UHGV virus genome: UHGV-1364441
DNA: 64,000 bases
Reading direction: 5' to 3' (one strand)
Source of the DNA: a virus
A program made the translations under genes and the position numbers. A model generated the notes under the pieces. It did no database searches. It had not been told where the DNA came from and was given only the letters and a program-made list of their open reading frames with translations. Shown here one piece after another: positions 20,536 to 58,049 of this stretch (positions within the stretch are counted from its first letter, which is position 1; each line of letters begins with the position of its first letter).

Positions 20536-20574
20536 AAATGTGTTAGAACATTGATTTTAGTTTTCTAACATATT
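20536..20574. promoter_or_regulatory. Operator-like inverted pair TGTTAGA-N16-TCTAACA between the phosphatase and DUF968-like genes
   Basis: Read directly. Confidence 0.5.
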
Positions 20575-33279: not shown

Positions 33280-33431
33280 GAAACTATTTAACCTCTATAT
33301 ACAGATGACGCTACGCGAAAAATATAAAAATGACAGGGTAGCTATAAGTTAATTTTCAAGATTCAAGCCTTTGATTCGAGGCACGTATTTTCAGTGATGT
33401 CAATACTGATCATCTACCCATGATTATAGCC

Positions 33432-33463
33432 TAACTTTAAATAATGCCAATTATCTAAAGTTA
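33432..33463. other. rox-like recombination site TAACTTTAAATAAT-GCCA-ATTATCTAAAGTTA
   Basis: 14-bp inverted arms (1 mismatch) around a 4-bp spacer, about 150 bp upstream of the recombinase start; 31/32 identical to the rox site as I recall it. Confidence 0.75.
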
Positions 33464-33634
33464 GAAATTTAGGAATTTTTTTTCTTTCCGCGCAGATGGG
33501 CAATGCATTGCTGGTGTGGGCTTTAAGTTATGCCTGGCAGTTTTTAAGCAGAATTTTCTAAATTGGATGATAAAAAAATGCATCTTGATCCTTTACTCAC
33601 CCTGTTATTCGGCATAGATTTGTCATAGTAATTT

Positions 33635-33652
33635 TATGTTAGAAAACTAAAT
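33635..33652 (+). promoter_or_regulatory. Operator-like motif TATGTTAGAAAACTAAAT about 15 bp upstream of the 33665 start
   Basis: Instance of the recurrent motif. Confidence 0.45.
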
Positions 33653-33664
33653 CGAGTAGGAATA

Positions 33665-34702
33665 ATGAGTAAGAAGTCGATCGAGAAAGAGTACAAACGG
33701 TTCCTGCAAACCGCTGAACGGTGGAAAGAGCTGGTGGTCGCAAACTCTGTTTTCCATGATACCAGTTATTCCGGCGAGGAATTCCGCCATGTTGCACTAA
33801 CACATGATCAGAATGTGCTAGAAGAAGCTGAAAAGTGCCTCACAGAATGGAAAGCCTTTGTTGACTTGTGCCGTAACGCTGACGGCAAAGCGTCTAACAT
33901 TGTTGAGTCTGTATATTCTCCGATCCCATTCATTATCGAGGACACAAATCAAAGCACGCATATTGTTGTGCAAAGCGCGACCACCACCCGCTCATTTACG
34001 CGCGAAAATCTGCTCAAAAAATATGATGCAATTATAAAGAAAAGCCTGAAAAACAAGATATTTTCGCAGATTGTTGGTGCACTTGAAGAAGAGCGCCGTT
34101 TTTTCGCATCAGAACCTGAAGGGGAAGTTTACCGGGCGCGCAAAGATGGATACACAGATGTAGTGCTTACAACAAACATTGAAGGCAGCAATGCTCTGTC
34201 ACGATTCAGGGTAGGCGCACACGGAGCCTTAGTGTTCGCAAAACTTCCGAACACCACAGTGCCCGTTGTTAATAATGTCGGCGAACGTCGCAGCATTACT
34301 ATTTATTCTGGGGTTGAGTCGATACCTTGCGGCCTGCTTGGTGACTTTAGTCTCTATCGCGTTCGCGATCTGGAGAAACACCAACCAAGCTATGTTGCGA
34401 AGTCATACATCTTGCGAAACATCGACATCCGCAATGAGAGCTTAAAGAACAAATCAGCCAAAATGCTTGAGGAAGCCGATCCGGCTATTCGCCATATCAT
34501 TGAGCGTAAAATACAGACAGCACGCGAAGCGATGGCGCGACTGAATAAAATGGATCTGGAGTTGTTAGACGTAATGATGACATCCGGAGATGACCTGACA
34601 GGCATAAAACTGACAGACGCGCGGAAAAGATACGGTAAAACCATAGAAGAACGTTACGGGTTCACTTTCTCCCAAACACAGCACGCCGCTAAACTCTGGT
34701 AA
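33665..34702 (+). CDS. Hypothetical protein; candidate C1-like master repressor (by position only)
   Basis: Sits between the rox site and pacB, convergent with pacB, as c1 does in P1; operator-like motif just upstream; no sequence-level assignment made. Confidence 0.4.
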   Translation: MSKKSIEKEYKRFLQTAERWKELVVANSVFHDTSYSGEEFRHVALTHDQNVLEEAEKCLTEWKAFVDLCRNADGKASNIVESVYSPIPFIIEDTNQSTHIVVQSATTTRSFTRENLLKKYDAIIKKSLKNKIFSQIVGALEEERRFFASEPEGEVYRARKDGYTDVVLTTNIEGSNALSRFRVGAHGALVFAKLPNTTVPVVNNVGERRSITIYSGVESIPCGLLGDFSLYRVRDLEKHQPSYVAKSYILRNIDIRNESLKNKSAKMLEEADPAIRHIIERKIQTAREAMARLNKMDLELLDVMMTSGDDLTGIKLTDARKRYGKTIEERYGFTFSQTQHAAKLW

Positions 34703-34727
34703 TCATAAGCCCCGCATTGCCGGGGCT

Positions 34728-36236
34728 TTATATATCCAGATCTGGCATTTCCACATCTGCAAGAACCTGATCGCGGAAGGTAGCCATTTCAGCGCCGATA
34801 TCTTCATTAGCAGGAACATAGTCCACCAGCATTGTAAAGCAGTAGGTATCCCATCGGTCAGGTGATTTGATGTTCAGCTTTTGCCGCATGTGCTCCTTGC
34901 GCATCATCGCCATCTTCCCTTCTTCATTAAGTAAAAAGGGGATTTTTGACGCTTGCTCTGCCGTTTTAGGGTCACTGTCTATTCGCATACGACCTGACTT
35001 TATGGCATCACGAGCCATAATATTTGCGTAGGCACGCTGGTTAACAAAACGCTCCTTGTCTTTGTTCGAAAACATGGGTTTCCCCCACCGAATCCGTACC
35101 GGATTAGCCCCACGGCGCACCAGCTGCGCACAGGTATCTGAACCAAAACCGTCTGCGTCAACCGCGATTGTAATATTCGGGTATTTATCCGGCGTGCATT
35201 CGTTGTATATAAAGTCAGCAAAAGCCAGCGGGTCCATAGTCCCTGGCATTTCCATTACCTTAAAGTTAACAACACGCCGCTTTTCCCGGTGACCAGACAC
35301 TTTACAGATATTAAGAACTGACTTGTCTCGCCCGTTACCAACGTCAGCAGTAGCCACCCATCCCCAGTTTTTCTCCAACAACACCTTGCGCCGCGCAGCG
35401 CGATCGCATTCATCACGACCAAGCAAATAGCCGTTAATCTCCCGAGGAAACTGACCAAGAACCTTGACCATGTACTCAATAGAATCGCGCCCGCCATATT
35501 CCAGGAGTTTCTGCCTGATGAATTGTGGTGTGACGAACGGTGATTCTTCTGAGTTAAGAACAATTGCTGTCCAGATCCCTTTCGGGTTGTCTGGGGTTTT
35601 AGCTTGAGAATGGTGCGAATCGTAGAAATAACCACTTGGCCTTGTTGGCTGGGATAGCATCAACATTCGGTTATCTTCTTCAGTCAGAGCGCCAGTCATT
35701 ACGCCGATCGCTTTATCAGATATACCTGATGCTTCATCCAGAATTAGAAGCAAATGTGCCGCGTGCTCCCCCGCCAGAGCTTCTTCGTTACCGAGTCGAT
35801 AGCCTTTGCAGAGAACTTCCCAGATCCCCTTTCGAGAGCGTTCATAAAACATGGTGTCAGACAGGACAAAATAGGTCTGTAACCACCCATGACGCTTAAC
35901 GGCATTCGCCCAATACTGTTTAACGTATTTAAATACACCTGTCTTAACCTGACCTATTTTGTTAGCAACAATGATGACACGGGCATCGGGGAACAGAATC
36001 AAATAAATCAGCAACAACATAGCCGTTAGCGACGATTTCCCTGTACCGTGACCAGAGGTAACAGTGGTTCTGCTCCCTTTTTGCTGTACGGACTGGATAA
36101 TCTCCTGCTGCTGGTGGGAGGGAAACATCCCGAATATATCAACAACAGCCTGGGTAAAGTTGTAGCGGTATTTGATTACCATATCGCGCCAGCGTGGATC
36201 GCTGGTGACGCATTTAATCTTGCGCCCACCAGCCAT
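34728..36236 (-). CDS. pacB: Terminase large subunit (PacB-like)
   Basis: Walker A TSGHGTGKSS and Walker B LLILDEASGI; 502 aa; coupled to upstream small-subunit-like gene. Confidence 0.7.
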   Translation of the reverse strand: MAGGRKIKCVTSDPRWRDMVIKYRYNFTQAVVDIFGMFPSHQQQEIIQSVQQKGSRTTVTSGHGTGKSSLTAMLLLIYLILFPDARVIIVANKIGQVKTGVFKYVKQYWANAVKRHGWLQTYFVLSDTMFYERSRKGIWEVLCKGYRLGNEEALAGEHAAHLLLILDEASGISDKAIGVMTGALTEEDNRMLMLSQPTRPSGYFYDSHHSQAKTPDNPKGIWTAIVLNSEESPFVTPQFIRQKLLEYGGRDSIEYMVKVLGQFPREINGYLLGRDECDRAARRKVLLEKNWGWVATADVGNGRDKSVLNICKVSGHREKRRVVNFKVMEMPGTMDPLAFADFIYNECTPDKYPNITIAVDADGFGSDTCAQLVRRGANPVRIRWGKPMFSNKDKERFVNQRAYANIMARDAIKSGRMRIDSDPKTAEQASKIPFLLNEEGKMAMMRKEHMRQKLNIKSPDRWDTYCFTMLVDYVPANEDIGAEMATFRDQVLADVEMPDLDI

Positions 36237-39519: not shown

Positions 39520-39595
39520 TGGTGGCCCCTACCGGACTTGAACCGGTGACCGTGCGATTATGAGTCGCCAGCTCTAACCACTGAGCTAAAGGGCC
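39520..39595 (-). tRNA. tRNA-Ile2 (anticodon CAU, lysidine type) or tRNA-Met-like
   Basis: Manual fold: 7-bp acceptor stem, CCA encoded, anticodon loop CUCAUAA; close to E. coli ileX; one mismatch at the base of the anticodon stem. Confidence 0.75.
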
Positions 39596-40559: not shown

Positions 40560-40635
40560 TGGTGCCGATTAACGGACTCGAACCGCTGACATCCTGCTTA
40601 CAAGGCAGGCGCTCTACCAACTGAGCTAAACCGGC
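40560..40635 (-). tRNA. tRNA-Thr (anticodon UGU)
   Basis: Manual fold: canonical cloverleaf, anticodon loop CUUGUAA, CCA encoded. Confidence 0.85.
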
Positions 40636-40637
40636 AT

Positions 40638-40714
40638 TGGCGATGGTGGGTGGATTCGAACCACCGACCGACAGCTTAGAAGGCTGCTGCTCTATCCTAC
40701 TGAGCTACACCATC
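40638..40714 (-). tRNA. tRNA-Arg (anticodon UCU)
   Basis: Manual fold: canonical cloverleaf, anticodon loop CUUCUAA, CCA encoded; 2 nt from tRNA-Thr. Confidence 0.85.
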
Positions 40715-52663: not shown

Positions 52664-52864
52664 TCAAGTCACGATCCAATCATTACCGACTATATCAGCC
52701 GTCGATAAATCAACTTCCCGGATCTGGAGTCCATTAATACAAAACCATCCGGTAGTAGAGTAATTATCAGGCCAGGCCCATACACCAACACTCCATGCTT
52801 TACGGCGGCACACTTCAGCCTGTTCTTCCCTGATTTTTTTTACCGCCTGCATGATGTCCATCAC
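52664..52864 (-). CDS. Hypothetical protein (66 aa)
   Basis: ORF coupled downstream of the Rha-like gene. Confidence 0.35.
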   Translation of the reverse strand: MMDIMQAVKKIREEQAEVCRRKAWSVGVWAWPDNYSTTGWFCINGLQIREVDLSTADIVGNDWIVT

Positions 52865-53553
52865 TCACCTCCCCAACCGATCACCTGGAATTGCCCCATT
52901 TTTGGGTGATACCAGCGTTTTCCTCGGTGTTCAGCCTCCGACATCATCCGGTTAAAAGCATTCATGAAGGGAGATAAGGCCACGATGGATCGACGCGACA
53001 ATACCCCCTCTGGAGTTAAAAACTCATGTGTATCGGTGGGAATCCGGTAAGCGTTGACCAGGTTGCGACATTTGGCTTTGGTCAGGCCGCATTTTGCCGC
53101 CAGCTGGCGGTAGCCAATGTAGCCTTCCGGCATATTGCCTTTCTTGATTTGCTCAACGGTTTCAGCGACCTGGCTAACCTTTGACTCAACAGCATGAAGC
53201 CGCTTTTGCTGCTGAACTGCATTTGCAGCCATTGCGGCGATCTTCTCTATTTCGGTCAACGGCTGGCGTACTTGTTCTTCCAGTTCGCGCCAGCGGTCCA
53301 CCAGCCGGGCGGTGAATTCCGGAGAGAGCTGCGCAACGACAATAATGCTGTCTCGTTTGCCTTGCTCGCCTTCGAAGACGTAATAGCTCGCCGGGCGGCC
53401 TGCGGTGGGCTTTTCCTCAATTTGAGGAAAAGATATTACGCCCCGTTCCGCTAGGTGTTCAATGGTGCGTTTAACGTTATCAGGGCGCTTACCTACCAGT
53501 TCCGCGATCTCAATGCTGGTCATTGATGGCTTTTCAAGAATGCAGATATCCAT
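52861..53553 (-). CDS. Rha-family phage regulatory protein (antirepressor-like)
   Basis: N-terminal Rha/Bro-N-like HTH region; ATG 53553 with GGAGG RBS, ATGA overlap with upstream ORF. Confidence 0.65.
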   Translation of the reverse strand: MDICILEKPSMTSIEIAELVGKRPDNVKRTIEHLAERGVISFPQIEEKPTAGRPASYYVFEGEQGKRDSIIVVAQLSPEFTARLVDRWRELEEQVRQPLTEIEKIAAMAANAVQQQKRLHAVESKVSQVAETVEQIKKGNMPEGYIGYRQLAAKCGLTKAKCRNLVNAYRIPTDTHEFLTPEGVLSRRSIVALSPFMNAFNRMMSEAEHRGKRWYHPKMGQFQVIGWGGE

Positions 53554-53975
53554 CAGTGTGCCTCCGCAATTCCGGAATTGGTAATATTGCGATACCAAGG
53601 ATTAGTGTTTGGTTGTGATGAAGAAGAGAAACGGCCAGTAAGGACGCCATGTTGATCAGGGATCAGAGAACGGGCTTCTTTTTCAGTTGCGGCAATTGCG
53701 AAGTGATCACAGTGTTTTTGCAGGGAGTGGAAACGCCAGATAAATTCCGGGCGCGAGCAAGGATTGGCATTAACCATAGTTACGGCCTCATTCGTAGGTT
53801 TAACAACCTGCGCCCCGCTGCTAAACGGGTGGCAGGACGTGACGGGGTTAGCAGACTGGCACGAATGAAACCAGCAGGCCGAAGCCTCCCCATCACGCCC
53901 CACCATAATTCGGGCGTAACGTGGTTTTACGGACACAAAAATACCGCAATATCGGATATCTGCGGTTGTCCGCAT
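53553..53975 (-). CDS. Hypothetical protein upstream of the Rha-like gene
   Basis: Coupled ORF; an antisense ORF 53649-53993 competes, so the coding frame is uncertain. Confidence 0.3.
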   Translation of the reverse strand: MRTTADIRYCGIFVSVKPRYARIMVGRDGEASACWFHSCQSANPVTSCHPFSSGAQVVKPTNEAVTMVNANPCSRPEFIWRFHSLQKHCDHFAIAATEKEARSLIPDQHGVLTGRFSSSSQPNTNPWYRNITNSGIAEAH

Positions 53976-54120
53976 TCGTATTCAGGCTGCTAAACCCGGT
54001 CGCAGAATTTGCTACGACGACATGAATATAAGCCTGAAAACATGGAAGATCAACTAAAAATTTCAGCAATGGATGACTTCAGTCGATGATGCAGATCATA
54101 CATTCCGATTTAGAAACGGC

Positions 54121-54144
54121 AAATTAATTTTCTAACACAAAATG
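54121..54144 (-). promoter_or_regulatory. Operator-like motif (minus strand TTTTGTGTTAGAAAATTAATTT), ~150 bp upstream of the 53975 start
   Basis: Instance of the recurrent motif. Confidence 0.5.
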
Positions 54145-54191
54145 TCGAGCGAGCATTTTCCGATCATTGGGATGTTTTGTAGACGCACAGG

Positions 54192-55154
54192 TCATCCCCT
54201 AAAGCCAGCCGGGATTGACCAATCCTCACGGTCAAATTCAGACCGATAGCCACGCTGTTTCATCAGGTCAAAGGCTTCACCAATGGTTGCACACCCCTGG
54301 GAGCCAGAATAATCCATTGAGAAATCCAGGGCACTGGATTGTTTAGGCTTATTCACTGCGGTAGCGGCACTACGTATCCATGCAAATTTTTTTGCCAGCT
54401 TTTCAGCGGTACGATACAGAGCCTGCCGTTTTGTGTGCCCCTCGTCTGAACGACGCTTTGCAGCTCTCGCTTTTGCCGCCGCCAGGCAGTGGTTGGTCTG
54501 TTCTTCCCTGATTACTGTTTTTTTATCCAGTACCCCGTTATCCGTTTGAGAACTATCTGCTGGTGAAGCCTTTGGCTGAACCGCGCATGATCTTTCTCTT
54601 CTTTTGGCTATAGAGTGACTCTTATTTTCTATTGGCTGTTCATTTTGAACATGGGGGGACTTGTTCAATTTGAACAGGGGGTTCCCAGTTTCAAAAAAAT
54701 AACGAACCTTTGAAATCAACTGCTTAACCAGTTTTGTGGCGTTGGCAAATTTGATGCCCTGCTTACCCCCTATCTCCATTGCTACATGAATGAAGTGGAG
54801 AAATTGTGTCGTAAACCGATATACGTTACACACCTGGGCATTGTTATTCGCTACCTGATGTTGCTTAACAAGCATTCCGCACTTCGTCGCTTCAGCAAAT
54901 GCCCGGCGTACAGTAGAAATACTGCGTCCTGTAATCTCGGACATATCAGCATATGAGCGACGGATCATGTATTCATCGGTAGACCCTGCCAGGTTGGCGA
55001 ACTCGGCAATAATGGCGCTATGTGAAGGGGAAAGAAGACCGCTATGACGAGCAAAAAAACTCAACTGATGACCTTTGATTTTTTTGTGGTATTCAGTGTT
55101 GTTTTTATACTCAGAAGTGTTGAAAGTTACTGAAACTGAATTTAAAATATTCAT
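54192..55154 (-). CDS. Hypothetical DNA-binding protein, possibly replication-associated
   Basis: N-terminal HTH-like segment ITGRSISTVRRAFAEATKCGMLV; 320 aa. Confidence 0.45.
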   Translation of the reverse strand: MNILNSVSVTFNTSEYKNNTEYHKKIKGHQLSFFARHSGLLSPSHSAIIAEFANLAGSTDEYMIRRSYADMSEITGRSISTVRRAFAEATKCGMLVKQHQVANNNAQVCNVYRFTTQFLHFIHVAMEIGGKQGIKFANATKLVKQLISKVRYFFETGNPLFKLNKSPHVQNEQPIENKSHSIAKRRERSCAVQPKASPADSSQTDNGVLDKKTVIREEQTNHCLAAAKARAAKRRSDEGHTKRQALYRTAEKLAKKFAWIRSAATAVNKPKQSSALDFSMDYSGSQGCATIGEAFDLMKQRGYRSEFDREDWSIPAGFRG

Positions 55155-55214
55155 CAGATAGTTCCGTGCAAAAATCTATCTACCGTATAAATCTATGCCA
55201 GTGGATTTATACAC

Positions 55215-55249
55215 CAAAAAGCCGCTTCTCAGCGGCTTTTGCTTTTTTT
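55215..55249. terminator. Bidirectional rho-independent terminator
   Basis: GCCGC-TTCTCA-GCGGC hairpin with T-runs on both strands. Confidence 0.65.
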
Positions 55250-55324
55250 GGCAGTCGCTACCGGAGCAGTGACCGCGATCCTACTCGATCACATCGGACA
55301 GGATCAACAGTGTATATAAATACA

Positions 55325-55345
55325 CTATGTTAGAAATTTAATTTC
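55325..55345 (+). promoter_or_regulatory. Operator-like motif CTATGTTAGAAATTTAATTTC
   Basis: Instance of the recurrent motif between the late-operon end and the terminator. Confidence 0.5.
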
Positions 55346-55354
55346 ATGCAGCGG

Positions 55355-56353
55355 TTATCCCCGTCGCGAAACGAAGAGTAATGGGGTAGTATTTTTGCTC
55401 TCCTTCGGCGATAACTCCGGCTCTTTCTTGCCTGATATCGGCAAGCCATAAGTCGCATTTGCCCCCAGAGATTCAAGCATCGCAGCCACTATGCGAGCAT
55501 CATCTTCAGACTGCATACGGCAGAGCGCCCGACGCTGTTCTGCGCTGATAAAAACAGGCAGCTCCTGGATAGCATCACGCAAAATCCTACGGCATTTCTT
55601 CGCATCTTCGCCCTGGCTTTCCATCATTGCGGCCTGGTTGCGTAATTTGTCGCGAAGTTGCATATTTTCCACTTCAAGGAGCATCAATTCTGACTCAAGG
55701 GCTTCACGCTGTGCTGACTCGAAAATAGCCTGCTGATTCTTCATTGCTGAAAAGTGGTGAACAAGATCCGTAGCCGCGTTATCGGTAAAACCTTGTTCGA
55801 TAAGTGCCGCATGAATAGCCGCGTCGCGCTCTTCTGCTGATTCAAGCATCAGGCTTTTCTTGTCGAGGCTGATATAGTTAGGAACAGTTACGTAATCAAA
55901 GCCGTGGAAAGACTTTACCAGGGATACCGATGAATCTGGACCAGATGTAGCCCACGACCAACCACCAGCACCAGAGTTAATCATGCCCTGAACAATACGC
56001 CCGGTGTCTGTATCCAGTATTTCCTGCGTATGAGTAACAATGCCGTTGTCGTCAATCGAAATGTCGATAGTCCTGTTTGACGGCACGTTCTCCAATACAA
56101 CAGGCTTCCCATCTACCATCACAACAGAGACTTCCGGCAAGTTCAGGCTTTTCGTTTTGTTATAGTGCATCGCCCGGCGACCATGACCGTAATAACCATA
56201 CATCTCACCCAGCGCGATACGCTCTTTTGTTTCTGGCGAGTTGAATGTGTCTCGTACCGACTGAATGACGTAATTTCGGTTGTTCTGCGGTGTGTGTTTG
56301 CGGATTTTCTCTACCAGGGAGAAGCGATCCGTAACAGTATTCAGTGATTGCAT
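55355..56353 (-). CDS. Hypothetical protein (332 aa), last gene of a long minus-strand operon
   Basis: Coiled-coil C-terminal half; possible head-assembly role is inference only. Confidence 0.45.
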   Translation of the reverse strand: MQSLNTVTDRFSLVEKIRKHTPQNNRNYVIQSVRDTFNSPETKERIALGEMYGYYGHGRRAMHYNKTKSLNLPEVSVVMVDGKPVVLENVPSNRTIDISIDDNGIVTHTQEILDTDTGRIVQGMINSGAGGWSWATSGPDSSVSLVKSFHGFDYVTVPNYISLDKKSLMLESAEERDAAIHAALIEQGFTDNAATDLVHHFSAMKNQQAIFESAQREALESELMLLEVENMQLRDKLRNQAAMMESQGEDAKKCRRILRDAIQELPVFISAEQRRALCRMQSEDDARIVAAMLESLGANATYGLPISGKKEPELSPKESKNTTPLLFVSRRG

Positions 56354-56366
56354 TATTTCCCTCCGG

Positions 56367-58049
56367 TTAATTGCTCATCACAAATTTTGCAAAGTTTATT
56401 AACTGTTCTGGCGTCCAGTTTTCCGGATCGTCACCGGACGACAACGGCGCGGATTCGTACATACCATGCTCGTTGTTTTGCTCTGATTCATTCGCCTTAA
56501 ACTCTTTGATCATGGTGTTGAGAGTGTCATCGTCGATGTGCAACTGCTCAGTGAACAGATAACGCATAAACGCGTCGCTACCAGCCAGTTTCGGGTTGTT
56601 CTGGATCTGGTCCATAATTTGGGAGATGACAGCAACAAAGTTGGCGCGTGCATCCAGTTCTCGGTTTTCCTCTTCCTGGATAGCAGTGTTCATTGAGTTG
56701 AATTGCACGTCATAAGGGCGGTTTGTTTCGGTGTAAACCTTGCCGTATTTATAAGCGAGGTGAATGTCCAGAAGCCGATAAATAGTTCGCTGGGCGGCCT
56801 GTCTGATCCAGTTCGCACGCAATGCAGCCTGGATAGCAGTTTGCTGCCAGCCGCCTTCTCCAAGCCCTCCGCTCATCTGATCAGCCCAGCCAAGCATTGT
56901 TGCGTCAATGCCGAGGCTTGCAGCAAGCTGCCGGAGGTGAAACATAACGTCTTCGATACCACTGATATCTGCGGGTATGGATTGCGTATCAATGGTGATG
57001 CCGTTCTTCCCGTCTCCCATAACAGGTATCAGATGGTTAAGCACAGTCGGAATAGCGTTGGCATTAATCGACCTTTGCGCCACCAGGTCACTATGACGCT
57101 TCAATGCCTGGCTGACGCCACGCGTATAGTTCGCCGCATTAACCGGGTCCAGTGTGTTCGTCGTAAGAGCAATCAGGCGGTCAATTTTGGCTGCATTATT
57201 TCGCGTTGATTTCAGCGCGGCGAGCGAAGCACATAAATTAAGGTAAGGTTCATAGCTGTATTCCAGGAATGAAGTTCCGTAATTCTGCGTCTCCATTAAC
57301 GGCTTATCAGCCTGATCACTTAACAGTGAGTACCCTTTTGTGCCGTAGCTAACCGGAATAACTTTATGCTGTGGCGTCCAATAGGGATTTTTCATGGAAA
57401 CCAGATTCCACGGTTCGGTTATTACTCTGCGCAAACTATGCGTATCCAGAATGTAATCACCACTGAAACCTACCAGCTGGCTACCACGATAAAACTCCTG
57501 GACGAAGTGTGGCAGAGTGTAATAACTGGACTCAATGCCTGTTATCCCCCTGCCCTGTTCAGCATAAGGTCGGACATAAGACACCCCAAAGATAGCCATA
57601 ATCATGGCCCATGAAGGAAGTCCGTCATTAATCATCGCCCCCAAATCAGCGGTTAACTCTTCACATCTACTTACTGCCTCAGCATCGGAACCATCCTTTG
57701 GCGAAAGGATGAATGCTTGTCCGGTTTTTTTTGAAGGCGCAAGCGCATGTGCAATGTGAATGTTTAAAGCCGTCGAGATAGTCGGGCTTTTAGCCATCGT
57801 TTCCAGGATGTTGTACTTTTGCAGGCGCTCGCCGGGCAGTTCAGCGGATAAAGAAATTGAATCTGCTGCACTCGTCATGCCATCGCTGTTGCTCCCCAGT
57901 ATACCTGGACGTAAAGCAGACAGGCCGGAACGAGCAACGACACTATGCCCGCTCGTAAAAACGACCGGATCGGCGGGCGTAACATCACCACCGTTGAAGG
58001 CTTTCTTCAATGCTGACAGAAAGCCTTTGTTTTTGTCTTTCGTTGCCAT
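56367..58049 (-). CDS. Hypothetical protein (560 aa), possible virion or portal-class protein
   Basis: Size and operon position only. Confidence 0.45.
   Translation of the reverse strand: MATKDKNKGFLSALKKAFNGGDVTPADPVVFTSGHSVVARSGLSALRPGILGSNSDGMTSAADSISLSAELPGERLQKYNILETMAKSPTISTALNIHIAHALAPSKKTGQAFILSPKDGSDAEAVSRCEELTADLGAMINDGLPSWAMIMAIFGVSYVRPYAEQGRGITGIESSYYTLPHFVQEFYRGSQLVGFSGDYILDTHSLRRVITEPWNLVSMKNPYWTPQHKVIPVSYGTKGYSLLSDQADKPLMETQNYGTSFLEYSYEPYLNLCASLAALKSTRNNAAKIDRLIALTTNTLDPVNAANYTRGVSQALKRHSDLVAQRSINANAIPTVLNHLIPVMGDGKNGITIDTQSIPADISGIEDVMFHLRQLAASLGIDATMLGWADQMSGGLGEGGWQQTAIQAALRANWIRQAAQRTIYRLLDIHLAYKYGKVYTETNRPYDVQFNSMNTAIQEEENRELDARANFVAVISQIMDQIQNNPKLAGSDAFMRYLFTEQLHIDDDTLNTMIKEFKANESEQNNEHGMYESAPLSSGDDPENWTPEQLINFAKFVMSN

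What the first reader, a model, noticed from the sequence alone, without database searches (positions are those of the whole stretch)
53976..55346. Operator-controlled leader regions that may encode small RNAs
An operator-like motif at 55325-55345 is followed on the minus strand, about 75 nt later, by a strong terminator (55215-55249) that precedes the 320-aa gene start; this fits a short operator-controlled transcript or attenuated leader. A second operator at 54121-54144 lies about 150 nt upstream of the ORF preceding the Rha/Ant-like gene, the position where P1 encodes the c4 antisense RNA ahead of icd-ant.
Basis: inference. Interest (0 to 1): 0.5.

Follow-up and report, generated by a model that had tools for sequence, protein, structure and literature searches.

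The report
P1-type immunity and replication control RNAs
Both flagged regions are the phage-D6 versions of two known phage P1 control regions: one encodes the known C4 antisense RNA that holds an anti-repressor in check, and the other most likely makes a short antisense RNA against the lytic replication gene repL, so this is largely ordinary.

Summary
The window is a D6-like plasmid prophage, 96% identical to phage D6. The 17-mer AAATTAAWTTTCTAACA occurs 13 times against 0.55 expected, at 54121-54137 and 55328-55344 among other places, and a G+C hairpin sits at 55217-55250.

Region 2 is the P1 immI operon. It runs operator, P51a- and P51b-like promoters, an a1/b1 leader (Rfam c4-a1b1, 52 bits), C4 RNA (Rfam, 72 bits, about 53828-53904), a2/b2, icd, then a Rha-like anti-repressor. 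The C4 loops (CUGCUAA, AUUCGU) match all four targets. This is one recurring allele among at least 12 loop combinations.

Region 1 is the repL control region, equivalent to P1 Op53. The hairpin scores as a terminator in both directions. Facing it from inside repL is the best sigma-70 promoter match in the 64 kb (55120-55148, + strand). This pairing of a strong antisense promoter and a hairpin recurs in four D6-like clades and in P1, where it makes the known P53as antisense RNA. I infer a roughly 95-nt countertranscript at 55156-55250. An attenuated sense leader is not excluded.

No transcript data exist. Verdict: known kinds, new member, modest interest.

The parts
54121..54137 (+). Monovalent D6-type C1 operator, the counterpart of P1 Op51/Oc4. 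It overlaps the -35 hexamer of the P51a-like promoter by 2 nt.
   Evidence: Perfect match to the 17-mer, which has 13 sites against 0.55 expected. Its position relative to the promoter is the same as in P1.
54095..54122 (-). P51a-like promoter, TTGCCG-16-TATGAT. This is the operator-controlled promoter.
   Evidence: Promoter scan, own position-weight-matrix score 10.2, and alignment with the annotated P1 P2c4 promoter.
54025..54053 (-). P51b-like promoter, TTGATC-17-TATATT. No operator overlaps it. The predicted transcription start is near 54018.
   Evidence: Promoter scan. It is the 4th best sigma-70 match in the window at 12.4. Its -10 hexamer aligns with the annotated P1 P1c4 -10.
53937..54018 (-). 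IsrK-like leader. It carries a1 (53987-53993) in a hairpin loop, b1 (53973-53979) in a single-stranded stretch, and a terminator-like hairpin (53943-53966) followed by a U run.
   Evidence: Rfam c4-a1b1 at 53979-54031, 52.2 bits against a gathering score of 46.7. Rfam isrK matches full length at 46.5 bits against 50, E 3e-9.
53828..53904 (-). C4 antisense RNA, 77 nt by homology with the P1 c4 feature. Loop b' is CAUUCGU (53861-53867) and loop a' is CUGCUAA (53848-53854).
   Evidence: Rfam RF01695 at 53825-53910, 71.9 bits against 45, E 5e-12. Alignment with P1, P7 and D6. Coordinates.
53788..53824 (-). C4 target sites a2 (53818-53824, TTAGCAG) and b2 (53788-53795, ACGAATGA). Site b2 abuts the icd Shine-Dalgarno sequence GAGG.
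   Evidence: Exact complementarity to a' and b'. The same positions are annotated as a2 and b2 in P1.
53553..53777 (-). icd, a 74-aa cell-division inhibitor. Its stop codon overlaps the start of the next gene.
   Evidence: NCBIfam phage_ICD_like, E 3e-10. D6 annotation. Translation aligned with P1 Icd.
52861..53553 (-). Rha/Roi-like putative anti-repressor, sitting where P1 has ant1/ant2. The start coordinate is approximate.
   Evidence: Pfam Phage_pRha, E 2e-7. The D6 annotation reads 'putative anti-repressor, similar to HK97 Roi'.
55328..55344 (-). Monovalent D6-type C1 operator, the counterpart of P1 Op53/OrepL. It begins 10 nt after the pro stop codon.
   Evidence: Perfect 17-mer match. 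The core TTTCTAA is conserved in four clades.
55278..55336 (-). Two candidate sense promoters for repL. Pa is TTTCTA(55331-55336)-16-TACACT(55309-55314), with its -35 inside the operator. Pb is TTGATC(55302-55307)-18-TAGGAT(55278-55283). Three GATC sites lie at 55277, 55287 and 55302.
   Evidence: The hexamers and spacings are conserved in four clades while the spacers vary. Scores are Pa 5.5 and Pb 9.5, against 5.7 for the real P1 P53. Coordinates.
55217..55250 (.). Bidirectional intrinsic-terminator hairpin. The core is GCCGCT-TCTC-AGCGGC. The + strand tail is TTTTGCTTTTTTT and the minus-strand tail is TTTTTGG.
   Evidence: The hairpin is kept in four clades with different stem sequences (GCCGC/GCGGC versus GTCGCC/GGCGAC).
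55120..55148 (+). Antisense promoter TTGAAA-17-TAAAAT, inside repL codons 3-12 and pointing at the hairpin.
   Evidence: 10 of 12 consensus positions in the scan. It is the best sigma-70 match in the whole window on either strand. Both hexamers are invariant in 18 distinct sequences. In repL codons 1-20, all 10 conserved residues keep the same codon, against 57% gene-wide.
55156..55250 (+). Predicted countertranscript of about 95 nt, antisense to the repL 5' UTR and ribosome-binding region. It folds into three hairpins (55156-55181, 55185-55212 and the terminator).
   Evidence: Inferred from the promoter plus the terminator. Fold energy is -32 kcal/mol, z = -5.5. The alignment-based consensus fold is slightly better in this orientation. 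No transcript data exist.
54192..55154 (-). repL, the lytic replication initiator (320 aa).
   Evidence: The D6 annotation reads 'lytic replication protein, similar to P1 repL'. Relatives carry PF26868 Phage_P1_RepL. It is 28% identical to the RepL of P1-like plasmids.
33665..34702 (+). c1-type prophage repressor, the presumed protein that binds the operators.
   Evidence: tblastn with P1 C1 gives 20% identity, E 5e-6. NCBIfam phage_rep_C1 gives E 4e-5, far below the family cut-off. It is 83-84% identical to the D6 gene annotated c1/prophage repressor.

Best explanation
The two flagged regions are the D6-lineage versions of two C1-repressor-controlled regulatory regions known from phage P1.

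(A) Region 53553-54137, minus strand, is the immI operon. A C1 operator overlaps the -35 of a P51a-like promoter, and a second, operator-free P51b-like promoter follows. The transcript begins with an IsrK-like leader that displays target sites a1 and b1 and ends in a leaky terminator-like hairpin. Next comes the C4 RNA, which in P1 is cut out of the transcript as a 77-nt RNA. Its loops a' and b' pair with a2 and b2 at the icd ribosome-binding site. This blocks translation of icd and, through translational coupling, of the downstream Rha-like anti-repressor. The homology, the layout and the complementarity are shown here. The processing and the repression are inferred from P1.

(B) Region 55120-55344 is the control region of the lytic replication gene repL. 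A C1 operator sits at the upstream promoter or promoters, which carry Dam (GATC) sites. A strong, probably constitutive promoter inside the first codons of repL fires in the opposite direction. Its transcript stops at the 55217-55250 hairpin, giving an RNA of about 95 nt complementary to the repL leader and ribosome-binding site. By analogy with the P1 P53as RNA, this countertranscript damps repL expression through pairing, convergent transcription, or both. The same hairpin, read in the sense direction, probably also stops late prt-pro transcripts and partly attenuates repL transcripts. All of (B) is inference from sequence and comparison.
For: (A) The region is 96% identical to D6 and 86-88% identical to P1/P7 over c4-icd. 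Rfam C4 scores 71.9 bits and c4-a1b1 scores 52.2 bits, both above the gathering scores. The operator, both promoters, a1/b1, c4, a2/b2 and icd are collinear with the annotated P1 features. Loops a' and b' are exactly complementary to a1, a2, b1 and b2. The same holds in all 111 of 119 IMG/VR c4 copies that have complete flanks, across 2 a' types and 7 b' types. The isrK model matches the leader over its full length, including the terminator. The experimentally studied Gifsy-1 IsrK is exactly such a leaky-terminator leader RNA upstream of an anti-repressor (PMC4825925).

(B) The + strand promoter at 55120-55148 is the top sigma-70 match in 64 kb. The consensus scan calls the hairpin a terminator on the + strand. 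Operator core, then 17 nt, CACTGTTGATY, then 18 nt, TAGGATC, then a hairpin, then a strong antisense promoter: this layout is found in four clades whose RepL proteins are as little as 34% identical. The stems and the antisense promoters differ in sequence between clades. The same scoring recovers the annotated P1 P53as promoter as the top hit. P1 also has a hairpin with an antisense-oriented U tail about 180 nt from the annotated antisense start site. Synonymous sites under the promoter are frozen. Substitutions within the D6 clade fall in the spacer, not in the hexamers.
Against: No RNA data exist for either region in D6-like elements.

(B) In this window the hairpin scores slightly better as a terminator in the sense direction (19.8 against 14.4). 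Promoter conservation inside repL could reflect protein constraint or translation-initiation constraint. G-U asymmetry in hairpin 2 favours the + strand in the D6 clade but the minus strand in the L003 clade. In the two distant clades the antisense promoter lies 60-90 nt upstream of the ribosome-binding site, so masking of that site cannot be the conserved mechanism. Which sense promoter the operator controls is unresolved. The better-scoring candidate lies 20 bp downstream of the operator.

(A) The isrK match is just under Rfam's gathering score.
Confidence: 0.65

Rival explanations
1. Transcripts from the operator-controlled promoter end at the 55217-55250 hairpin on the minus strand. That would give a short RNA (about 57 or 88 nt, depending on the promoter) made only on derepression, or an attenuated repL leader. 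The hairpin would also terminate the late prt-pro operon. This rival can coexist with the antisense RNA, because the terminator is bidirectional.
For: The sense-direction terminator score is positive in every clade and is 19.8 in this window, with tail UUUUUGG. The hairpin lies downstream of both candidate sense promoters in all four clades. It is the first terminator after pro.
Against: The sense tail has only 4 U in many D6-clade members and in the L003 clade, where sense scores are 0.5-7 and antisense scores are 10-14. No conserved alternative (anti-terminator) pairing was found in the leader. An efficient terminator there would block the essential repL gene. The consensus scan lists the site only on the + strand. 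This reading does not explain the top-ranked opposing promoter.
Confidence: 0.25
2. The hairpin and the neighbouring inverted repeats (the 18-bp palindrome at 55309-55326 and ATAAATC-N10-GATTTAT at 55187-55210) act at the DNA level as protein-binding or replication-origin elements, not as RNA signals.
For: The palindrome and the inverted-repeat arms are invariant within the D6 and L003 clades while their centres vary. Dam sites cluster here. Arm-like similarity exists between 55200-55214 and 55312-55326.
Against: The palindrome and the ATAAATC repeat are absent from the two distant clades, whereas the G+C hairpin with flanking A and T runs is retained there with a different stem sequence. That pattern is what an RNA terminator predicts. 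The P1 origin lies inside repL, and a better origin candidate exists inside repL in this window.
Confidence: 0.07
3. The + strand promoter-like site is only a by-product of repL coding sequence and makes no RNA. On this view the hairpin's + strand T run is merely the A run that accompanies a sense terminator.
For: The site lies in codons 3-12, where the residues ILNS and TFN are conserved. Promoter-like hexamers are common in A+T-rich 5' coding regions.
Against: It is the best match in 128 kb of scanned strand, where sites scoring 12 or more occur about once per 25 kb. Distant clades have different but equally strong antisense promoters outside the coding region (TTGCGY-16-TATAAT). P1 has an annotated, experimentally derived equivalent.
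Confidence: 0.1

Closest known systems
Phage P1/P7 immI operon: Op51, P51a/P51b, c4 antisense RNA, icd, ant1/2 (Rfam RF01695 and RF03163)
   Same: The DNA is homologous, at 86-88% identity over c4-icd. The order of operator, two promoters, a1/b1, C4, a2/b2 and icd is the same. Both have a monovalent operator overlapping the -35 of the upstream promoter, and in both b2 sits at the icd ribosome-binding site.
   Different: The operator has the D6-type sequence (TGTTAGAAAATTAATTT) rather than the P1 consensus. The anti-repressor is a Rha/Roi-like protein unrelated to Ant1/2. The recognition loops are a' of the P7 type (CUGCUAA) and b' AUUCGU, which differs from P1 (ACUAAC), P7 (ACAAUC) and D6 (GUAAGU).
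P1 lytic replicon: Op53, P53, kilA, repL with the P53as (PaskilA) antisense RNA (Heinrich et al. 1995, NAR 23:1468; features in GenBank AF234172)
   Same: Both have a C1 operator and Dam sites at the promoter and a RepL homologue. Both have a strong opposing promoter at the 5' end of the first gene, and a hairpin whose U tail is better in the antisense direction.
   Different: There is no kilA here. There is no sequence similarity in the control region. The hairpin lies downstream of the operator and promoter instead of upstream, so the predicted RNA is about 95 nt and does not cross the sense promoter. In P1 the RNA is about 180 nt and does cross it. The upstream neighbour is the late prt-pro operon rather than ant.
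Salmonella Gifsy-1 IsrK sRNA/leader (Rfam RF01394; PMC4825925)
   Same: Both are leader RNAs with two hairpins, a single-stranded stretch and a leaky intrinsic terminator. Both lie upstream of a processed stable RNA, a small ORF and an anti-repressor. The model matches over its full length.
   Different: The score is 46.5 bits, under the gathering score of 50. Trans-activation of translation by the short form has been shown only for Gifsy-1. The a1/b1 sites here are exact C4 targets.
Countertranscript control of plasmid replication genes (R1 CopA, ColE1 RNA I, pT181 RNA I)
   Same: Both involve a short, structured, probably constitutive RNA made from the opposite strand of the leader of a replication-initiator gene, ending in an intrinsic terminator.
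   Different: The genes are unrelated. Here the replicon is a phage lytic replicon that is also under repressor control. Attenuation of the pT181 type is unlikely, because the sense hairpin is transcribed before the region that the antisense RNA would pair with.

Membership tests
C4 antisense RNA (Rfam RF01695) | Covariance-model score at or above the gathering score | tested here: met
   71.9 bits against 45, E 5e-12, full-length match at 53825-53910 (-).
C4 antisense RNA (Rfam RF01695) | Two loops (a', b') complementary to paired target sites upstream (a1, b1) and at the ribosome-binding site of the downstream gene (a2, b2) | tested here: met
   Exact 7-8 nt complementarity at all four sites. 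Three-way covariation holds across 12 aligned variants and in 111 of 111 IMG/VR copies with complete flanks.
C4 antisense RNA (Rfam RF01695) | Located between a C1-controlled promoter and icd plus an anti-repressor | tested here: met
   The operator, promoters, icd and Rha-like gene are collinear with P1.
C4 antisense RNA (Rfam RF01695) | Processed 77-nt RNA that represses anti-repressor synthesis | not testable with these tools
   Needs Northern blots or RNA-seq and reporter fusions.
c4-a1b1 motif (Rfam RF03163) | Covariance-model score at or above the gathering score | tested here: met
   52.2 bits against 46.7 at 53979-54031 (-).
IsrK sRNA (Rfam RF01394) | Covariance-model score at or above the gathering score | tested here: not met
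   46.5 bits against 50, though full length with E 3e-9 in the local search. P7 scores 43.7 and P1 scores 35.1. The leader resembles IsrK but is not a member by Rfam's threshold.
P1-type C1 operators | Asymmetric 17-bp site repeated around the genome at promoters of immunity and replication genes, with a cognate c1 gene | tested here: met
   13 sites against 0.55 expected. They lie at c4, repL, next to c1 and elsewhere, and some are inverted pairs. A c1 homologue is present.
P1-type C1 operators | Match to the P1 consensus ATTGCTCTAATAAATTT | tested here: not met
   The window consensus is AAATTAAWTTTCTAACA. Only the TCTAA core resembles P1. The repressor is only about 20% identical to P1 C1. 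This points to a distinct D6-type specificity.
P1-type C1 operators | Bound by the repressor | not testable with these tools
   Needs footprinting or gel-shift assays.
P1 P53as-type antisense RNA of the lytic replicon | Strong promoter at the 5' end of the first lytic-replicon gene, opposite in direction to the C1-controlled promoter | tested here: met
   TTGAAA-17-TAAAAT at 55120-55148 (+) is the top score in the window. The method recovers the P1 P53as promoter.
P1 P53as-type antisense RNA of the lytic replicon | Intrinsic terminator in the antisense direction within about 100-200 nt | tested here: met
   The hairpin at 55217-55250 is a + strand terminator call with score 14.4. It is conserved in four clades.
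P1 P53as-type antisense RNA of the lytic replicon | The RNA crosses the sense promoter and operator | tested here: not met
   The terminator ends at 55250, and the candidate sense -10 hexamers are at 55278-55283 and 55309-55314.
P1 P53as-type antisense RNA of the lytic replicon | Sequence homology to the P1 kilA leader | tested here: not met
   Sensitive blastn of 55080-55360 against the phage collection finds only D6.
P1 P53as-type antisense RNA of the lytic replicon | A transcript is detected and it inhibits repL expression | not testable with these tools
   Needs RNA mapping and promoter-down mutants.

The most novel reading that the evidence does not exclude
In the D6 lineage the lytic replicon is wired differently from P1. 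Two convergent promoters, one C1-controlled and Dam-sensitive in the sense direction and one strong in the antisense direction, are separated by a single bidirectional terminator. Both would therefore make mainly short RNAs. Expression of repL would then need regulated read-through of the terminator, for example by a phage antitermination function or by the methylation state of the GATC-bearing promoter. That would add a control step not described for P1-like phages.
Probability: 0.15. Interest if true: 0.5.

Novelty: new member of a known kind. Interest (0 to 1): 0.3.

Why it matters
The analysis supplies RNA-level annotation that the D6 GenBank record lacks in the 9-kb stretch examined. This covers C4 and its targets, the C1 operators, and a candidate countertranscript controlling lytic replication. 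D6-like elements are a common family of E. coli, Salmonella and Shigella phage-plasmids, with 118 plasmid records matching the repL control region.

The C4 loop and target alleles form a combinatorial set of 2 a' types by 7 b' types, always matched. These should define immI heteroimmunity groups among co-circulating P1- and D6-like plasmids.

None of this changes the known principles. It extends them to a sister lineage and gives precise coordinates for experiments.

Tried and rejected
1. The papers that would settle what is already known were not held in the library: the D6 genome paper (PMC5800970), the P1 genome paper (PMC523184) and Heinrich 1995 (PMC306884). Knowledge of P53as therefore rests on the GenBank features, the paper title and my memory of its abstract. 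One paper search was wasted on the ambiguous term 'P53as', and several calls failed on terms that were too short.

2. A genome-contig scan with a RepL alignment found nothing. Distant relatives came instead from the protein search, contig look-ups and IMG/VR.

3. I could not fix the sense promoter from sequence. A -10 of TAACAT inside the operator was rejected because it reads TAACAC in other clades and has no usable -35. A promoter downstream of the hairpin (TTGGTG-16-TAGATT) is weak and absent from the distant clades.

4. A DnaA-box reading of ATAAATCCAC was rejected, since it matches only 6 of 9 positions and is not conserved among variants.

5. Countertranscript-driven attenuation of the pT181 type was rejected, because the sense hairpin is 5' of the region the antisense RNA would pair with.

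6. G-U asymmetry as a strand test gave conflicting answers in different clades.

7. The weak Rfam matches in 55077-55285 (rnk leader, sar, an IRES) have E values of 0.2-0.9 and were ignored.

8. The 55-aa + strand ORF 55166-55333 spans the terminator and was treated as spurious.
Full report
**What the window is.** The region 53457-56400 is 96% identical to Escherichia phage D6, a P1-related plasmid prophage. A 373-nt stretch (53666-54038) is 86-93% identical to the c4-icd segment of P1, P7 and their relatives. The D6 annotation gives the gene order on the minus strand: portal, head protease (pro, 55355-56353), repL (54192-55154), icd, and a Roi/Rha-like putative anti-repressor. These are followed by a peptidoglycan hydrolase on the other strand and a darB-like giant gene. 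In the 9-kb stretch of the D6 record that I examined, only protein-coding features are annotated. No RNA or operator features are listed.

**Checking the observation.** The 17-mer AAATTAAWTTTCTAACA, allowing up to 3 mismatches, occurs 13 times in the window. Shuffles give a mean of 0.55, and none of 100 shuffles reaches 13. Perfect copies lie at 54121-54137 and 55328-55344. Several other copies form inverted pairs of the form TGTTAGA...TCTAACA. This recalls the bivalent C1 operators of P1, whereas the two flagged copies are single, like P1 Op51 and Op53.

A gene 83-84% identical to the D6 gene annotated c1/prophage repressor lies at 33665-34702, next to one copy. It is distantly related to P1 C1. 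The hairpin AAAAGCCGCT-TCTC-AGCGGCTTTT at 55217-55240, with T's running to 55250, is real.

**Region 2 (54137 down to 53553) is the immI operon.** Rfam finds C4 antisense RNA at 53825-53910 (-), scoring 71.9 bits against a gathering score of 45. It finds the c4-a1b1 motif at 53979-54031 (-), scoring 52.2 bits against 46.7. Alignment with P1 places every annotated P1 feature in the window:

- The operator (54121-54137) overlaps the -35 of a P51a-like promoter (54122->54095).
- A P51b-like promoter follows at 54053->54025. It is the 4th best sigma-70 match in the window.
- Target sites a1 (53993->53987) and b1 (53979->53973) come next.
- The 77-nt C4 RNA maps to 53904->53828.
- Target sites a2 (53824->53818) and b2 (53795->53788) follow, with b2 next to the icd Shine-Dalgarno sequence.
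- icd occupies 53777->53553, and its stop codon overlaps the start of the Rha-like gene.

The true Icd protein is 74 aa.

**C4 specificity.** In the window, loop a' is CUGCUAA and loop b' is (C)AUUCGU. Both a targets read UUAGCAG and both b targets read ACGAAU(G). P1 has CUGUCAA/ACUAAC, P7 has CUGCUAA/ACAAUC, and D6 has CUGUCAA/GUAAGU, each with matching targets.

These carry 2 a' types and 7 b' types in at least 12 combinations. In all 111 copies with complete flanks, the four targets are exactly complementary to the loops of that copy. The window's combination occurs in 9-11 of the 119 copies. It is a recurring allele of a known recognition system, not a novelty.

**The leader upstream of c4.** In E-value mode the isrK model (RF01394) matches 54018-53937 (-) over its full length, at 46.5 bits. 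This is just under the gathering score of 50, with E = 3e-9 in the local search. The match includes a terminator-like hairpin (53966->53943) and a U run. P7 scores 43.7 and P1 scores 35.1 against the same model.

Gifsy-1 IsrK has been shown experimentally to be a leader RNA with a leaky terminator. It lies upstream of a processed stable RNA, a small ORF and an anti-repressor (PMC4825925). A published description of a D6-like Salmonella plasmid already notes an ImmI-like region with c4, icd and an anti-repressor (PMC6799933).

**Region 1 (55344 down to 55120) is the repL control region.** RepL belongs to the P1 RepL family. Its relatives carry PF26868, and it is 28% identical to the RepL of P1-like plasmids.

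I compared four clades:

- the D6 clade, represented by 18 distinct sequences;
- a clade about 75% identical in DNA, from Shigella, E. fergusonii and E. coli plasmids;
- an Enterobacter clade and a metagenomic contig whose RepL proteins are 34% identical to the window's.

All four keep the synteny prt, pro, intergenic region, repL. All four share this layout: operator core TTTCTAA, then 17 nt, then CACTGTTGATY, then 18 nt, then TAGGATC, then a G+C hairpin flanked by A and T runs. The stems differ between clades (GCCGC/GCGGC versus GTCGCC/GGCGAC) and so do the loops, so it is the structure that is conserved.

Two hexamer pairs have conserved sequence and spacing but variable spacers. These are candidate sense promoters:

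- Pa is TTTCTA-16-TACACT, with its -35 inside the operator. It scores 5.5, comparable to 5.7 for the genuine P1 P53.
- Pb is TTGATY-18-TAGGAT, scoring 9.5, with both hexamers carrying GATC.

Scores are and coordinates. I cannot tell which of the two the repressor controls.

**Which way does the hairpin work?** The consensus scan reports it only as a + strand terminator. It also reports a + strand promoter, TTGAAA-17-TAAAAT at 55120-55148, inside repL codons 3-12 and 70 nt upstream of the hairpin. With a simple position-weight matrix, this promoter is the best sigma-70 match on either strand of the whole 64-kb window. Sites scoring 12 or more occur about once per 25 kb of strand.

The same matrix finds, as the top antisense-strand hit in each distant clade, a different but strong promoter (TTGCGY-16-TATAAT) that again points at the hairpin. 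In P1 it recovers the annotated P53as/PaskilA promoter as the top hit. P1 also has a hairpin with a strong antisense-direction U tail, lying between ant and Op53. It is about 180 nt from the annotated antisense start site. This agrees with the 180-base antisense transcript I recall from the abstract of Heinrich et al. 1995, whose title is cited.

Both hexamers of the window promoter are invariant in all 18 distinct sequences, while the spacer takes substitutions. In repL codons 1-20, all 10 conserved residues keep identical codons between the window and the 75% clade, against 57% gene-wide.

The predicted RNA (55156-55250, about 95 nt) folds into three hairpins with z = -5.5. The alignment-based consensus fold is slightly better in this orientation. 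I therefore read the hairpin mainly as the terminator of a countertranscript to the repL leader, functionally analogous to P1 P53as.

**Caveats on region 1.**

- A terminator score of the d'Aubenton-Carafa type is positive in both directions in every clade. The antisense direction wins in four of six cases, including P1. In this window the sense direction is slightly higher, 19.8 against 14.4.
- The element is thus best called bidirectional.
- I found no conserved anti-terminator pairing.
- In the distant clades the antisense promoter lies upstream of the ribosome-binding site. Masking of that site therefore cannot be the conserved mode of action. Convergent-transcription interference or duplex formation are the alternatives.
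- There is no sequence homology to the P1 kilA leader. Unlike in P1, the predicted RNA stops short of the sense promoter.
- No transcript data exist for any D6-like element that I could find.

**Verdict.** Both loci are members of known regulatory kinds. The first is the P1/P7 immI C4 system, established here by homology and covariation. The second is the C1-controlled lytic replicon with an opposing RNA, inferred here by conserved architecture. Novelty is limited to a D6-lineage variant layout of the repL control region and to one more allele in a combinatorial C4 specificity series. Interest is modest.

Noticed in passing
window 53848-53867 and its targets; loci L037-L155: C4 recognition loops come in at least 2 a' types and 7 b' types (ACAATC, GTAAGT, ACTAAC, ATGTAC, ATTCGT, ACAAGT, TTGAAC), mixed in at least 12 combinations among 119 IMG/VR copies. 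The four target sites always match. This looks like a combinatorial immunity barcode reshuffled by recombination between the a and b sites.
   Followed up: partly
window 54637-54681 (inside repL): Two 20-nt direct repeats, TGTTCAWTTTGAACAKGGGG, lie 25 nt apart, each with a palindromic core, and a third half-site lies at 54684-54696. They fall in repL codons 141-200, where 36 of 41 conserved residues keep identical codons between clades, against 57% gene-wide. This is a candidate lytic origin or RepL-binding site.
   Followed up: partly
window 55309-55326: There is a unique perfect 18-bp palindrome, AGTGTATTTATATACACT, between the repL operator and the GATC-bearing hexamers. It is invariant in the D6 clade and the 75% clade apart from its centre, but it is not palindromic in the distant clades. 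Its function is unexplained.
   Followed up: partly
window 55185-55212: The inverted repeat ATAAATC-N10-GATTTAT in the repL leader has conserved arms and a variable centre. It could be hairpin 2 of the predicted antisense RNA or a protein-binding site. The strand test based on G-U pairs was inconclusive.
   Followed up: partly
loci L003-L005, L028, L030, L032-L034: Relatives outside the D6 clade have repL directly next to the CHAP/peptidoglycan-hydrolase gene, with no c4-icd-anti-repressor module and no Rfam C4 match in the loci searched. The immI module of D6-like phages therefore looks like a mosaic insertion shared with P1.
   Followed up: partly
window 7332, 16811, 20541/20554, 38068: Several operator copies are inverted pairs of the form TGTTAGA-N-TCTAACA, which resemble the bivalent C1 operators of P1. 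The pair at 20541-20570 overlaps itself.
   Followed up: no
window 39523-39595, 40563-40635, 40641-40714 (minus strand): Three tRNA genes score above the Rfam gathering score.
   Followed up: no
window 33400-34800: The c1 repressor region is only about 83-84% identical to D6, whereas the repL/immI region is 96% identical. The operator consensus nevertheless appears the same. This may indicate a diverged repressor allele or recombination.
   Followed up: no
PMC6799933 (pYU39_89): A published D6-like plasmid is said to carry a second region homologous to c4 and icd. Only one C4 match is present in this 64-kb window.
   Followed up: no
L003 2700-2760 (43-nt insertion in the repL leader): The 75% clade carries an extra 43 nt containing GATATACCA...GCATTGATAT. 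This resembles the TATACCAT...GCGCAATAT antisense promoter of the distant clades and may be a decayed older promoter.
   Followed up: no
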